Shown here piece after piece: positions 6,306 to 9,935 of a stretch of 10,713 nt of DNA; the first letter of the stretch is position 1, and every line of letters begins with the position of its first letter. The stretch spans positions 1-10,713 of the forward strand of contig JAEOSK010000057.1 of assembly GCA_016840405.1 (NCBI GenBank). Direction: 5' to 3'. Source of the stretch: Candidatus Hermodarchaeum yapensis (GTDB lineage: Archaea; Asgardarchaeota; Hermodarchaeia; Hermodarchaeales; Hermodarchaeaceae). Position numbers and translations under genes: made by a program. The notes under the pieces are model-generated. The model saw only the letters and a program-made list of their open reading frames with translations, did not search any database and was not told the DNA's origin.

Positions 6306-6368
6306 ACAACAAAGTTTTACGGTGTCAAAGAGTAATTGAAGACCCAGTCTGAGAAGAGGTGCAAGTAA

Positions 6369-6866
6369 ATGCGACGTTTCTTGTATGCTGATCCAACCGT
6401 TTGCGTAGGCTGTCGTATCTGTGAAGCGGTTTGTAGTTTCCATTGGGAAAAAACCCTTAACCCGAAAAAAGCTCGAATTCGCGTTCGTCGAGTAGATCCA
6501 GGATTAGATGTCGTGGTTGCTTGTCGTAATTGTGAACACCCATGGTGTGTGGAAGCATGTCCTGAAGAAGCCCTTCAGAAGAATAAGCAAGGAATTGTTG
6601 TCGTAAAATCGAAGAAATGTAGAGGATGTGGGGCGTGTGTGGAAGCGTGCCCCTTTGGAGCAATTTTCTTACATCCTGAGACCCAAAAATCCATCAAGTG
6701 TGTTGCATGCGGTTTTTGCACGACGTATTGTCCCGTGAATACTTTACGGATTACCACCGAAGAAGAATTGGCAGCATTAAAACAACAGAAGGTTATCCAG
6801 CACGAGTGTGGAAATCTACTCGAAGAGCTTCGAGTAGAACGAGAGGAAAAGGGAGGCGAGGAATAA
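6369..6866 (+). CDS. 4x[4Fe-4S] electron-transfer subunit (DmsB/FdhB-like) of the AOR-family enzyme
   Basis: CVGCRICEAVC, CRNCEHPWCVEACP, CRGCGACVEACP and CVACGFCTTYCP. GAGGTG RBS at 6356-6361. The stop overlaps the next start (TAATG). Confidence 0.95.
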   Translation: MRRFLYADPTVCVGCRICEAVCSFHWEKTLNPKKARIRVRRVDPGLDVVVACRNCEHPWCVEACPEEALQKNKQGIVVVKSKKCRGCGACVEACPFGAIFLHPETQKSIKCVACGFCTTYCPVNTLRITTEEELAALKQQKVIQHECGNLLEELRVEREEKGGEE

Positions 6867-8788
6867 TGGCACGTAAACGGAAATTAGGCGGGTATGCAGG
6901 CCAACATCTGCATGTAGATATGACGAAGGGACTGTGTAAACCGGTTCCACTAGAGAAGGAATTTGCTGTCAAATACATTGGAGGACAGGGATTTGCTTCT
7001 CGCATATTATATGACCAGGTTGGTCCTCAAACAAATCCCTTGAGTCCAGACAATATCCTCATTTGGGCGACCGGCCCATTCACCGGCACTCTTTGGCCCC
7101 AAGCATCACGATATGTTGTTGGTGCCAAATCGCCTCTAACAGGAATTTTTGGAGAAGCCCATTCAGCTGGCCATTGGGGTCCAGAATTGAAGTTTGGTGG
7201 GTTCGATACAATTATTGTCACAGGACGGGCAAAAAACCCTGCGTATCTTTTAATTGATAATGGGAAAGCAAAATTAATCGATGCTAAGGATTTGTGGGGA
7301 CGGAACACAAACGAGACTGAAGAGATTATCAAAGAAACGCACCGAGATCCCAACCTCCGAGTCTCATGTATTGGCCAAGCGGGCGAAAATCTGGTTCGAT
7401 TCGCGGCAATTATTAACGACTATGATCGCGCCGCCGCACGTTCTGGCATAGGTGCAGTAGCGGGAAGTAAACGCCTCAAGGCAGTAGCGGTTCGTGGAAG
7501 CCAAGATATTCCGGTGGCTAAACCAGACAAGTATCTTAAAGTCATTGAAAAATTACATCAAAAGATGCTTGACAGTCCCTTCACAGCCAGCCGGGCGAAA
7601 TATGGGACCACTAATCTTGTTGAATTAATGCAAGAAATCGGTCGTCTTCCCAGCTATAACATGCGATCAGGTGTTTTTGCTGAATATCAGAAAATTAGTG
7701 GTGAAGCTATCAGAGAACACTATCTGGTGAAACCCCGTGCAGATTACGCTTGTTTACAGCGATGTGGACGATATACTCTAGTCAAGGCTGGTCCATACGC
7801 GTATTGTGGAGGAAGTCCTGAATATGAATCTCAGTCGGCATTAGGAAGTCGATGTGGTAACGAAAACCTCGAATCCATCCTGTATGGGCACCATTTGAGC
7901 AACTTGTATGGAATGGATACTATTTCAACGGGGGCAACGATTAGTTGGGCTATGGAGGCGTGGGATGAAGGACTAATTACTGCAGAAGATACTGGTGGTC
8001 TCGATTTGAGTTGGGGCAATCATGAAACGATAGTCAAGCTAATTCATATGATTGCCCATCGGGAGGGTTTCGGGGACATTCTCGCAGAAGGAAGTTTCAG
8101 AGCAGCACAAAAGATAGGGAGAGGAACCGAGAAGTTTGTAATGCATAGTAAAAAACAGGAGATAGCTGGACAGGAACCTCGAGCCCAGAAATCTATGGGA
8201 TTAGCTTCAGCCACGGCGGCACGGGGAGCCGACCACTTGTACGCGTTTCCAGTGCTAGATGAAATTGGGTTTGATGAAGAGATTGGAATTCGATACGGCG
8301 AGAAATACCTGCCAGAAATTGGAGACCGTTTGGATCCGAAATACAAGGGAATTATGGTGAAAGAAAACGAGGATTTCTGTGCGGTAGTGGAATCCCTTGG
8401 AGTTTGTAAGTATGGTACAGTGATACCCCCTGTTCTCTTTTACGAAGATATTGTCACGACCTACGAAGTCACAGTCGGAATATCATTAACAGAAGCAGAA
8501 TTCCGGCTGGCGGGTGAACGCATAGTGAACCTGAATCGCGCATTCAACATTCGTGAAGGTATTCGTCGAAAAGATGATTCACTACCACGTCGTCTAACCC
8601 ATACACCAGCCCCAGAAGGGCCTTCAAAAGGTCAAGTTGTGGAACTAGATCAAATGCTCGATGAATACTATGAACAGCGAGGCTGGAATGTAAAGGATGG
8701 ATTACCTACCAACCACACAATGCGTAGAGTAAAACTCGAAGATGTTGTCGAAGATTTAGCCAAACATGGTATAGTTTTACCTAATTGA
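6866..8788 (+). CDS. aor: Aldehyde:ferredoxin oxidoreductase family (tungstopterin) catalytic subunit, 640 aa
   Basis: GGYAG, KYIGGQG, AKSPLTG, IGQAGENLVRFAAI, GAVAGSKRLKAVAVRG, PEYES, YGMDTISTG and RAFNIREG. The start is ATG 6866, translationally coupled, not 6698. Subfamily and substrate are not determinable. Confidence 0.95.
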   Translation: MARKRKLGGYAGQHLHVDMTKGLCKPVPLEKEFAVKYIGGQGFASRILYDQVGPQTNPLSPDNILIWATGPFTGTLWPQASRYVVGAKSPLTGIFGEAHSAGHWGPELKFGGFDTIIVTGRAKNPAYLLIDNGKAKLIDAKDLWGRNTNETEEIIKETHRDPNLRVSCIGQAGENLVRFAAIINDYDRAAARSGIGAVAGSKRLKAVAVRGSQDIPVAKPDKYLKVIEKLHQKMLDSPFTASRAKYGTTNLVELMQEIGRLPSYNMRSGVFAEYQKISGEAIREHYLVKPRADYACLQRCGRYTLVKAGPYAYCGGSPEYESQSALGSRCGNENLESILYGHHLSNLYGMDTISTGATISWAMEAWDEGLITAEDTGGLDLSWGNHETIVKLIHMIAHREGFGDILAEGSFRAAQKIGRGTEKFVMHSKKQEIAGQEPRAQKSMGLASATAARGADHLYAFPVLDEIGFDEEIGIRYGEKYLPEIGDRLDPKYKGIMVKENEDFCAVVESLGVCKYGTVIPPVLFYEDIVTTYEVTVGISLTEAEFRLAGERIVNLNRAFNIREGIRRKDDSLPRRLTHTPAPEGPSKGQVVELDQMLDEYYEQRGWNVKDGLPTNHTMRRVKLEDVVEDLAKHGIVLPN

Positions 8789-8789
8789 A

Positions 8790-8804
8790 ATGATTCTGAA
8801 TCAT
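8790..8804. repeat. Perfect inverted repeat directly after the aor stop
   Basis: ATGATTC-T-GAATCAT. Confidence 0.6.
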
Positions 8805-8819
8805 CTGAGAAGCAAGGTG

Positions 8820-9115
8820 TGACATCCTCCCCTTCTTTGAGGAAAGGGCTTTGGACTGTTCCTTCGGGTTACCCTCGTCGCCGAGGCGCGTTTGGCCCGT
8901 AACTTGCCAGGTTCTGACGTTGTTCCGCCCCACACCGGCCCCTTAGGCAGGGGAATTTCTTGCACATGCCGGAGGGGGCTTCATGTGCGTAGATGCCGCC
9001 CTGCCACGTAATGCCTGGTGTACAGTGCTCCAGTCAGGCATACTTTGAGCTATGACAAAAGAGTCTATATACCCCGCGATTTTTCCTCATCTGCAGGAAG
9101 GGGACTTTTCGCCAA
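8820..9115 (-). mobile_element. Non-autonomous IS200/IS605-family derivative (PATE/MITE-like) carrying a structured ncRNA and no tnpA/tnpB
   Basis: The minus-strand right end AAGCCCTTTCCTCAAAGAAGGGGAGGATGTCA (hairpin 8848-8829, ending GTCA at 8820) resembles IS605/IS1341-type ends of the form AAGCCCC..hairpin..GGGGAGGATGTCA. The left end TTGGCGAAAAGTCCCCTTCCTGCAGATGAGGAAAAATCGC is a degenerate related hairpin. The interior is GC-rich with several stems. The left boundary is approximate. Confidence 0.7.
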
Positions 9116-9152
9116 CAAGGTTAAATCTATGGTATGAAGGTAGCGATGAGGT

Positions 9153-9935
9153 ATGGCGCTGGCAATCGGGAAGAATCGAAGTCGTATGGTGGCGTATCTA
9201 GCGATTTTTATTGCCCTCGTAGCTGTTTTTGATGCGATTCCTATTATCCCAGGATTGTACAGTGGGATTTGGGACTCGTGGATATTTCTCCTCAGTCCCA
9301 TTATTGGTGTCTTATTAGGTCCTTTTCTGGGGTTCATTGCAGTTGGACTAGGAAGTTCACTGGGGCATTTTATCTATTATCGAGATCCATTTGAATTCGT
9401 TTTCATGCTAGGTGCCGCTTTTGGAGCTGCCTGTGCTGTACTAATTTACCACCGGCGTTGGAAACCCGTCCTCATTATCTATTCGGGATTACTACTTGGA
9501 TATTTCCTAACCCCAATAACTTGGTCTCTCCCGTTGATTGGAATTTGGGACATTCTTCTTGGATATGGAATCTTGCTCCTCTTCATTCTCCTTATTAGCA
9601 TCCAAATATGGCCCACTCACCACACGCAAGATCAATGGCTGCGACTGCTCTTCTGTGCCATTATAGGGCTAGAAGCCGATATTCTTCTGCGTGTTTTCAT
9701 TCTCATTCCTCTTGGGACCTACTGGTTCTTCTATGGGATGACACCAGGATTCTTGTACTGGCTCTGGTTAACGGCGGGAATAATCACTCCGTTAAAAGTC
9801 GCAATAAGTGGGGTGTTTACTGTCACTATTGGGTTTAGTCTCCTTCAAATTCTTCCCAGGGTAGGAGTTCCGTTAACTGAAGAAGTCGCCGACATAAAAC
9901 CTGAACAGCCTCCTCCGAATCTGGTGATGGATTGA
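9153..9935 (+). CDS. ECF transporter S-component-like integral membrane protein, substrate unknown
   Basis: About 8 hydrophobic segments. The N-terminal AYLAIFIAL and LSPIIGVLLGPFLGFIAVGLGSSLG match the S-component pattern. TATA-like TTAAAT at 9121-9126. Confidence 0.7.
   Translation: MALAIGKNRSRMVAYLAIFIALVAVFDAIPIIPGLYSGIWDSWIFLLSPIIGVLLGPFLGFIAVGLGSSLGHFIYYRDPFEFVFMLGAAFGAACAVLIYHRRWKPVLIIYSGLLLGYFLTPITWSLPLIGIWDILLGYGILLLFILLISIQIWPTHHTQDQWLRLLFCAIIGLEADILLRVFILIPLGTYWFFYGMTPGFLYWLWLTAGIITPLKVAISGVFTVTIGFSLLQILPRVGVPLTEEVADIKPEQPPPNLVMD

What the first reader, a model, noticed from the sequence alone, without database searches (positions are those of the whole stretch)
8800..9115. Protein-less IS200/IS605 element that looks like a stand-alone TnpB-type guide-RNA cassette
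Seen: two related terminal hairpins, a right end finishing ...GGATGTCA, and only ~230 nt between them with no transposase or nuclease ORF. The interior is densely paired: ATGCCTG/CAGGCAT (9011-9017/9035-9041); GGCAGGG/CCCTGCC (8946-8952/8999-9005) enclosing GCACATG/CATGTGC (8962-8968/8982-8988); and GTTAC/GTAAC (8868-8872/8899-8903) enclosing CCTCG/CGAGG. A TATATA at 9066-9071, just inside the left end, would start a minus-strand transcript near 9045, just before the first hairpin. Known: TnpB reRNA/omegaRNA scaffolds end at the IS right end and use the next ~16-20 flanking nt as guide. Inference: a ~240-nt RNA with guide CACCUUGCUUCUCAGAUGAU that loads a TnpB or nuclease-dead TnpB encoded elsewhere. 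The terminal hairpins look decayed while the interior stems are intact, which would fit domestication.
Basis: partly seen in the sequence, partly recalled or inferred. Interest (0 to 1): 0.8.

Follow-up and report, generated by a model that had tools for sequence, protein, structure and literature searches.

The report
Gene-less mini-transposon carrying TnpB-type guide RNA
This is a 302-base, protein-less IS200/IS605-type mini-transposon of an Asgard archaeon that keeps only its two ends, a promoter and a folded RNA of the kind that guides TnpB nucleases, which is a well-documented example of an already described kind of selfish element, not a new system.

Summary
Window 8819-9120, read on the minus strand, is a sharply bounded 302-nt element inserted 3' of TTTAA (9121-9125) with no target duplication. 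A sister species has the empty site of a paralogous copy.

The element has four parts:
- a left end homologous to the region just upstream of tnpB genes in this genome;
- a conserved archaeal TATA box (9066-9071);
- a ~225-nt non-coding scaffold with covariation support;
- a right-end hairpin followed by GGATGTCAC.

There are 6 diverged copies in this genome, about 16 more in 7 of 14 sister species, and distant versions in other Asgard families. Every copy has a different flank, which is the would-be guide.

Three parts of the reading are not supported:
- Domestication. The guide is only flanking DNA with no second target.
- "Decayed" hairpins. The right-end hairpin is intact; only the left-end hairpin of this copy has decayed.
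- A known partner. No tnpB in this genome, or in 151 Asgard genomes sampled, carries this scaffold, and no Y1 transposase was found here.

Stand-alone omegaRNAs and PATEs are already published, and this scan has already reported other copies of this family in the same genome. Verdict: a new member of a known kind, of modest interest.

The parts
9121..9125 (-). Target/transposon-adjacent motif TTTAA, outside the element. On the plus strand it reads TTAAA and, with the following T, forms a TATA-like TTAAAT 27-32 nt upstream of the ATG at 9153.
   Evidence: All copies start TTTAAC, with one ATTAAC. The empty site in G002:C35 reads ...gctatTTTAA|CCCTTATCC..., against the filled G000:C67 copy.
9072..9120 (-). 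Left end: CCTTGTTGGCGAAAAG, a degenerate subterminal hairpin, then GAAAAATCGCGGGG.
   Evidence: nhmmer matches to the 80-90 nt directly upstream of tnpB ORFs, on the tnpB strand, in the same genome. Matches to left ends of metagenomic tnpB elements. Hairpin weak in this copy. Mean pairwise identity 59%.
9066..9071 (-). Archaeal TATA box. It reads TATATA here, TTTATA in most copies and TATATA/TTTATA in the distant genus.
   Evidence: Conserved in position in alignments A1 and in the g18 family. It lies about 25 nt upstream of the first conserved scaffold base.
8828..9043 (-). Body of the omegaRNA-like scaffold, starting at (G)UAUGCC, the predicted transcription start at about 9043-9046. It includes the CCUCG-GCGA-CGAGG hairpin at 8873-8886 and the right-end hairpin at 8828-8849.
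   Evidence: Covariance model R1 scores 240.7 bits on 8820-9046. Covariation is shown. No conserved reading frame. Mean pairwise identity 79%, against 59-60% for the left end.
8819..8827 (-). Right-end terminus GGATGTCAC, the cleavage side of the element.
   Evidence: Invariant GGATGTCA across own-genome copies. The boundary after C follows from the empty site. The same terminus is found on tnpB-linked metagenome elements.
8799..8818 (-). Guide-like flank ACCUUGCUUCUCAGAUGAUU. This is host DNA in the 30-nt gap after the stop codon of the aldehyde:ferredoxin oxidoreductase gene (stop at 8786-8788).
   Evidence: Flanks are unrelated between copies, at 32% identity, which is the random level. No second genomic match beyond chance.

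Best explanation
Window 8819-9120 (minus strand) is a non-autonomous, protein-less derivative of an IS200/IS605-family tnpB element, that is, a PATE carrying a stand-alone omegaRNA gene.

What is shown:
- It inserted 3' of TTTAA without a target duplication.
- Its left end and right end are those of tnpB-bearing elements.
- It has a conserved TATA box.
- It holds a ~225-nt non-coding, structurally conserved RNA that ends exactly at the right end.

What is inferred:
- The TATA box drives a minus-strand transcript from about 9043 through the right end into the flank.
- The scaffold binds a TnpB made elsewhere in the cell.
- The 16-20 flank bases (ACCUUGCUUCUCAGAU...) then direct that TnpB to the element-free allele (TTTAA followed by the same flank). 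Cutting this allele favours retention or copying of the element, which is the homing logic shown for IS605 elements.

In this genome the element is probably immobile. No Y1 transposase was found, and this copy's left-end hairpin has decayed. The RNA part is still under constraint.
For: Boundaries and copies:
- There are 6 copies at 79-87% identity with sharp common ends and unrelated flanks.
- About 16 more lie in 7 of 14 same-genus genomes, several at orthologous sites.
- Distant members occur in other Asgard families; 17 of 151 genomes sampled have a hit.

Transposon character:
- The empty site in G002:C35 shows TTTAA|flank and no duplication.
- The left end is homologous to the region upstream of tnpB ORFs in the same genome. 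All of the 6-7 hits sit immediately 5' of tnpB on its strand.
- The metagenome scan for GAAGCCC-N10-20-GGAGGATGTCAC gave more than 120 loci. In 20 of the 80 examined, a tnpB ends 10-450 nt upstream on the same strand.
- L197, L162, L225, L201 and L235 also carry the TTTAAC...AGAAGTCC-hairpin-GGGGATGAAT left end.

The RNA:
- The family alignment has 90% of cells paired and 23 pairs with compensatory changes, against 9.9 in shuffles and at most 12 with slid partners. Many G-U pairs fit only the minus strand.
- No frame is conserved.
- The scaffold is 79% identical between copies, against 59-60% for the left end. It is 85-87% identical between distant orthologues whose flanks are 74-78% identical.
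- Model R1 matches a tnpB-linked RNA that overlaps the tnpB 3' end (L214, 24.9 bits, E 7e-6).
- There is a weak Rfam HgcC hit whose 3' end reads GGGAGGAGGUCAG.

Literature:
- Stand-alone omegaRNAs act in trans with compatible effectors (PMC10691335, citing Altae-Tran 2021).
- PATEs often encode omegaRNAs (PMC10055086).
- PATE-derived RNA and HgcC are discussed in PMC4615843.
Against: - No tnpB in this genome (86% complete) carries this scaffold or a GGATGTCAC right end. The same holds for the 27 distant loci checked, including those of a 100% complete genome.
- The omegaRNA model of the resident tnpB family (R2) does not match the short elements even with filters off.
- The only tnpB-linked scaffold match (L214) is weak. 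Its TnpB has no close homologue here or in the distant genus, at 25-35% identity.
- No Y1 transposase was found in the genome, and only 1 of 15 genomes in the genus has one. The excision that creates the TnpB target should therefore be rare.
- Transcription and TnpB binding are untested.
Confidence: 0.7

Rival explanations
1. Domesticated guide RNA. The RNA has been taken over by the host and works with a nuclease-dead or active TnpB as a regulator or defence guide (TldR-like). The element is no longer a transposon.
For: - The scaffold is more conserved than the left end, and more conserved than the flanking DNA of distant orthologues.
- Copies are retained at orthologous sites across species.
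- The left-end hairpin is decayed in this copy while the right-end hairpin and TATA box are kept.
- No transposase and no cognate tnpB were found.
Against: - Each copy's guide is just its own flank, and none has a second TAM-adjacent match in the genome.
- The partial match at 6348-6361 noted elsewhere has a 2-nt gap in the seed and no TTTAA.
- Presence is patchy: 7 of 14 sister species, plus an empty site in G002.
- 47-nt fused-end relatives show recent mobility in another genus.
- No dead TnpB partner was identified; this was not tested.
Confidence: 0.1
2. Neutral fossil. The element is a dead mini-transposon whose RNA, if made at all, has no function. Its apparent conservation reflects recent copying or gene conversion.
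For: - No transposase and no cognate tnpB were found in the genome.
- This copy's left-end hairpin has decayed.
- Between the two closest species the scaffold (82-86%) is less conserved than the coding flanks (89-92%).
Against: - Copies are 64-95% identical, so they are old, yet the scaffold is kept at 79% against 59% for the left end.
- Stems keep pairing through compensatory changes while loops vary.
- The TATA box and its spacing are conserved even in a different Asgard family.
Confidence: 0.12
3. A TnpB-independent small RNA. One option is an antisense or promoter-interfering transcript acting on neighbouring genes. Another is a structured RNA with its own function that merely travels on IS200/IS605 ends.
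For: - Read-through on the minus strand would be antisense to the 3' end of the aldehyde:ferredoxin oxidoreductase gene.
- Overexpressing a PATE-derived RNA changed growth in Halobacterium (PMC4615843).
- The scaffold body has no detectable relative among the genome's own omegaRNAs.
Against: - Neighbouring genes differ at every copy, so no common cis target exists.
- The 3' module (GNRA hairpin, linker, GAAGCCC-hairpin-GGAGGATGUCAC) is the same as in tnpB-linked elements.
- The scaffold ends precisely at the transposon end, as omegaRNAs do.
Confidence: 0.08

Closest known systems
Stand-alone omegaRNAs of OMEGA systems and omegaRNA-encoding PATEs (palindrome-associated transposable elements) of IS200/IS605 (PMC10691335 citing Altae-Tran et al. 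2021; PMC10055086; PMC3119063)
   Same: - It is protein-less.
- It has IS200/IS605 left and right ends and inserts next to a TAM without duplication.
- It occurs in several copies in a genome that also holds many tnpB genes.
- The RNA scaffold ends at the right end, with the guide taken from the flank.
   Different: - The scaffold (~225 nt) is not that of any tnpB element in the same genome.
- The lineage is found only as short elements across at least two Asgard families.
- It has its own conserved archaeal TATA box, inherited from the tnpB promoter in the left end.
IS1341-group (tnpB-only) IS200/IS605 elements and their omegaRNA/reRNA, e.g. ISDra2 (PMC8612924, PMC10097598)
   Same: - The left-end architecture and the right-end module (GAAG-hairpin-...TCAC) match.
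- The TAM is of the TTTAA/TTGAT type.
- The RNA lies on the tnpB strand.
- A possible relic of the TnpB C-terminal coding sequence is visible (QNLVSFG against NILRFG in L214).
   Different: There is no tnpB. The promoter is joined almost directly to the RNA, because the tnpB start codon position (GTATGC) is now the first base of the scaffold.
Rfam HgcC family RNA (RF00062) and haloarchaeal sotRNAs / the PATE-derived RNA VNG_R0052 (PMC4615843)
   Same: - All are archaeal, GC-rich structured RNAs tied to IS1341-type right ends.
- They share a GCGA-loop hairpin and a 3' end GGGAGGAnGUCA.
   Different: The match scores only 14.4 bits against a gathering score of 50. It covers only the 3' 115 nt, and the body of the scaffold is unrelated.
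TldR (nuclease-dead TnpB) guide RNAs (PMC10705468)
   Same: Both are TnpB-type guide RNAs that would work with a protein not encoded in a mobile unit.
   Different: TldR guides match a conserved host promoter and sit next to the tldR gene. Here the guide is the insertion flank, it differs at each copy, and no partner gene is adjacent.

Membership tests
IS200/IS605-derived non-autonomous element (PATE) | Insertion 3' of a specific short motif with no target-site duplication | tested here: met
   The empty site G002:C35 reads ...TTTAA|CCCTTATCC.... The filled G000:C67 copy reads TTTAA|CCTTGTC...GGATGTCAC|CCCTTATCC. TTTAA precedes every copy.
IS200/IS605-derived non-autonomous element (PATE) | Asymmetric ends with subterminal hairpins shared with tnpA/tnpB-bearing elements | tested here: met
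   - The left end matches the region upstream of resident tnpB genes.
- Both ends are found on metagenomic tnpB elements.
- The hairpin of the distant-genus copies equals the right-end hairpin of that genome's IS605, which has tnpA and tnpB.
IS200/IS605-derived non-autonomous element (PATE) | No protein-coding gene inside | tested here: met
   No frame stays open across 21 copies. There is no TnpB similarity by tblastn.
IS200/IS605-derived non-autonomous element (PATE) | Mobilised in trans by a Y1 (HUH) TnpA | not testable with these tools
   No PF01797 match in the own genome, which is 86% complete. One of 15 genomes in the genus has a match. Matches are present in the distant genus.
TnpB omegaRNA (OMEGA guide RNA) | Conserved structured scaffold that ends at the right end, followed by a variable flank-derived guide | tested here: met
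   Covariation is shown. Conservation drops sharply after GGATGTCAC.
TnpB omegaRNA (OMEGA guide RNA) | Scaffold homologous to one encoded at the 3' end of a tnpB gene | tested here: inconclusive
   - R1 matches tnpB-linked L214 over the whole model at 24.9 bits, and matches the 3' 95 nt of L225 and L188 at 17 bits.
- The resident-family model R2 does not match the short elements.
- No tnpB locus of the own genome matches beyond the terminal hairpin.
TnpB omegaRNA (OMEGA guide RNA) | Binds TnpB and directs TAM-dependent DNA cleavage | not testable with these tools
   This needs biochemistry. Candidate partners are the intact resident TnpBs.
Rfam HgcC (RF00062) | Covariance-model score at or above the gathering threshold (50 bits) | tested here: not met
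   14.4 bits, E 0.7, covering 8807-8921 on the minus strand. Nothing reaches gathering thresholds.
TldR-type domesticated guide RNA | Guide complementary to a conserved host target next to a TAM, with an adjacent or co-occurring nuclease-dead TnpB | tested here: not met
   There is no second guide match beyond chance for any of the six copies. The 6348-6361 similarity lacks a TAM and has a gap. Catalytic residues of the resident TnpBs were not examined.

The most novel reading that the evidence does not exclude
This may be an Asgard-wide lineage of stand-alone omegaRNA genes that has outlived both its own tnpB and its transposase. It exists only as short promoter-plus-RNA elements in at least two Asgard families. 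It is kept at orthologous sites, with the RNA under purifying selection. That would mean one of two things. Either it is used by a heterologous TnpB or dead TnpB, which implies relaxed scaffold specificity. Or it acts as a population-level gene drive against element-free alleles.
Probability: 0.2. Interest if true: 0.6.

Novelty: new member of a known kind. Interest (0 to 1): 0.3.

Why it matters
It adds a cleanly delimited archaeal example to the published class of stand-alone omegaRNAs. The example has an empty site, a TAM, a promoter, a covariation-supported scaffold and tnpB-bearing relatives of its ends.

The one open point of wider interest is which nuclease, if any, uses a scaffold that no tnpB gene in these Asgard genomes encodes. 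An answer would bear on how strictly TnpB and omegaRNA are matched. It would also bear on how guide RNAs become separated from their nucleases, a step on the road to CRISPR-like and TldR-like systems. Otherwise the element is ordinary for this genome, which holds several such mini-elements.

Tried and rejected
- RNase P or SRP RNA. This was my first thought, from GAGGAAAG on the plus strand and the ~300-nt size. Rfam gives nothing at gathering thresholds and only a weak HgcC hit on the minus strand. The region is also a six-copy repeat.
- A coding remnant. tblastn with 28 resident TnpBs gives nothing significant, and no frame is conserved.
- A deletion derivative of a resident tnpB element. 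Only the left end and the terminal hairpin module are similar. blastn, nhmmer, R1 and R2 all fail on the body.
- A second target of the guides. None was found beyond chance with up to 4 mismatches in 20 nt.
- An L214-type cognate TnpB in the own genome or the distant genus. Best identity is only 25-35%.
- An empty site for the window copy itself. The two flanking genes are not neighbours in any relative. The nearest species has a chimeric element there. The empty site was therefore taken from the C67 paralogue.
- Single-sequence folding statistics. These are uninformative.

Full report
**What is there.**
The gap between the stop codon of an aldehyde:ferredoxin oxidoreductase gene (6698-8788, plus strand; Pfam AFOR_N/AFOR_C) and an unannotated membrane-protein ORF (9153-9935, plus strand) is GC-rich: 59% against about 44% around it. 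A BLAST of the region against the window's own genome gave five further copies at 79-87% identity. The genome is 2.7 Mb in 77 contigs and 86% complete. Aligned with their flanks, the copies share sharp boundaries. On the minus strand every copy starts TTTAAC and ends GGATGTCA(C), and the sequence outside is unrelated. GenBank titles of same-genus assemblies place the organism among Asgard archaea, labelled Hermodarchaeota/Promethearchaeota.

**It is a transposon insertion of IS200/IS605 type.**
- *Empty site.* For the paralogous copy on contig C67, a sister species (G002) has the empty site ...gctatTTTAA|CCCTTATCC.... The filled site reads TTTAA|CCTTGTC...GGATGTCAC|CCCTTATCC. The element therefore lies 3' of TTTAA, ends in ...GTCAC and makes no target duplication.
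- *Window coordinates.* Transferred to the window, the element is 9120 to 8819 (302 nt), TTTAA is 9125-9121, and the flank starts at 8818.
- *Left end.* A profile of the six copies finds, apart from themselves, only weak matches to its first ~90 positions. All of these lie directly upstream of tnpB ORFs on the tnpB strand. The shared pattern is CGAGAAG-hairpin-GATGAATCGCGG-TATA-like box-...GTATGC, in which ATG is the tnpB start. This fixes the orientation: the window's minus strand is the tnpB-equivalent strand.
- *Right end.* Resident tnpB elements end in GAAGC-hairpin-(T)AGTTCAC, a variant of the GAAGCCC-hairpin-GGAGGATGTCAC found here.
Of the 80 examined, 20 have a tnpB ending 10-450 nt upstream on the same strand, about 35 are cut by a contig end, and 25 have none. 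Five of the tnpB-linked loci also carry a left end like ours, TTTAAC...AGAAGTCC-hairpin-GGGGATGAAT, 1.2-1.8 kb upstream.

**The cargo is a non-coding structured RNA with its own promoter.**
- *Promoter.* A TATA box (TATATA here, TTTATA in most copies) is conserved about 25 nt upstream of the point where strong conservation begins, (G)UAUGCC at 9043.
- *Not coding.* No reading frame survives across 21 copies.
- *Conservation.* Across 13 full-length copies, mean pairwise identity is 79% for the scaffold, 59-60% for the left end and promoter spacer, and about 30% (random) for the flanks. Between distant orthologous copies the scaffold is 85-87% identical while the mostly coding flanks are 74-78%.
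- *Wider distribution.* A covariance model of 21 genus copies (R1) finds further members in other Asgard families, in 17 of 151 genomes sampled.
- *Covariation.* On the 32-member alignment, 90% of cells pair. Twenty-three pairs show double changes, against 9.9 +/- 2.1 in shuffles and at most 12 with slid partners. The alignment was fitted to the model, so these numbers lean its way, but the slid controls are far lower.
- *Best-supported helices.* These are the CCUCG-GCGA-CGAGG hairpin (8873-8886) with its enclosing stem, and the right-end hairpin (8828-8849).

**Relation to omegaRNAs.**
- The 3' ~95 nt (GNRA-type hairpin, linker, GAAGCCC-hairpin-GGAGGAUGUCAC) align to the same module in tnpB-linked metagenome elements: L225 and L188 at 17 bits, and the terminal hairpin alone at ~15 bits in many others.
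- One tnpB-linked RNA, L214, matches the whole model at 24.9 bits (E about 7e-6, rough calibration) and overlaps the tnpB 3' end. That end encodes ...DVNAAKNILRFGHE. Our scaffold in one frame reads ...QNLVSFGPNA, a possible relic of that coding sequence.
- Rfam gives only a sub-threshold HgcC match, whose 3' end GGGAGGAGGUCAG resembles ours. HgcC and a PATE-derived RNA were linked to IS1341 right ends by Gomes-Filho et al. (PMC4615843).

**What is missing.**
- *No matching tnpB.* No tnpB in the own genome has this scaffold or a GGATGTCAC end. None of the 27 distant family loci examined has a tnpB in the canonical position, and this includes a 100% complete genome with 7 RNA-bearing copies.
- *Resident omegaRNA model.* The model of the resident tnpB family (R2) matches metagenomic GGATGTCAC elements but not our short elements, even with filters off.
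- *L214-type TnpB.* It has only 25-35% identical relatives here and in the distant genus.
- *Transposase.* No Y1 transposase was found in the own genome, and only 1 of 15 genus genomes has one. The distant genus has an IS605 whose right-end hairpin equals that of its short elements. It also has ~47-nt fused left/right-end solo-hairpin relatives, so the ends are mobilisable there.
- *Hairpins.* In the window copy the left-end hairpin has decayed, whereas all six right-end hairpins are intact.

**Guide.**
The 20 nt after each right end have no second genomic match beyond chance. A similarity at 6348-6361 noted elsewhere in the scan has a 2-nt gap near the seed and no TTTAA. So the guide is simply the insertion flank, as in any IS200/IS605 element. 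Its only expected target is the element-free allele, which does exist in a sister species for the C67 copy.

**Mechanism and verdict.**
The best reading is a PATE-type mini-transposon carrying a stand-alone omegaRNA gene. The tnpB promoter in the left end now drives the scaffold directly, and read-through into the flank supplies the guide. A TnpB made elsewhere would use the RNA to cut empty alleles. This is the homing and retention logic shown for IS605 (PMC10055086), and stand-alone omegaRNAs have been shown to work in trans (PMC10691335, citing Altae-Tran 2021).
- *Shown here:* the ends, the TAM, the empty site, the promoter motif, the conserved structure, and tnpB-bearing relatives of the ends.
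- *Inferred:* transcription, the TnpB partner, and cleavage.
- *Domestication* is not supported, though the constraint on the RNA without a cognate tnpB or transposase keeps a more interesting reading open at about 20%.

Other copies of this same family, and other ORF-less omegaRNA mini-elements in this genome, were already reported by this scan with the same conclusion. It is a new member of a known kind.

Noticed in passing
window 9121-9155: The target motif read on the plus strand (TTAAA plus T, giving TTAAAT) lies 27-32 nt upstream of the ATG at 9153 of the membrane-protein ORF. The element therefore sits directly against what looks like that gene's TATA box and replaces its upstream (BRE) side.
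   Followed up: partly
G000:C14:95567-96190 (L005/L064): A tnpB element of another family, with right end ...GGAGAGTGTCAA, lies convergent to the C14 copy and only 4 nt from its right end. The orthologous copy in G005 has ...TTAC|ATTG... there instead, so this was a later insertion at a TTAC site.
   Followed up: partly
L068 (G005:C315) 1985-2230: In the nearest species the oxidoreductase gene is followed by a chimeric element. Its left end and left flank are orthologous to the G000 C18 copy. Its first hairpin is retained, but the rest of the scaffold is replaced by unrelated sequence with no GGATGTCA end. This suggests recombination between copies and a rearrangement between the species.
   Followed up: partly
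L302, L307-L310, L312 (G056) and L296, L308 (G071): These are ~47-nt solo-hairpin elements, TTTAACTTATGCGGCGGGAAGTCCCC-loop-GGGGAGGATGTCAC. The left-end start is fused to the right-end hairpin, making REP-like minimal relatives of the family.
   Followed up: no
L139, L129, L138 (distant genus g18): A subfamily carries a ~73-nt extra hairpin inserted in the CCCCU/AGGGG stem-loop and a longer GNRA-hairpin region, giving RNA parts of ~325-345 nt. In L129 a tnpB gene starts ~190 nt downstream of the right end.
   Followed up: partly
L063 (G009:C43): The copy orthologous to G000 C13 has an internal duplication of about 35-60 nt. Profile positions 149-182 are matched twice.
   Followed up: no
window 6348-6361: A partial repeat of the guide-like flank (CACCT--CTTCTCAGA on the minus strand), noted elsewhere in the scan, has a 2-nt gap and no adjacent TTTAA. 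It looks like chance.
   Followed up: yes
L156-L235 (metagenome loci): The right-end motif GAAGCCC-hairpin-GGAGGATGTCAC is widespread. It occurs in sediment, marine, rumen and human-gut metagenomes. Matches often lie at contig ends, and about half of the loci with enough upstream sequence have no tnpB.
   Followed up: partly
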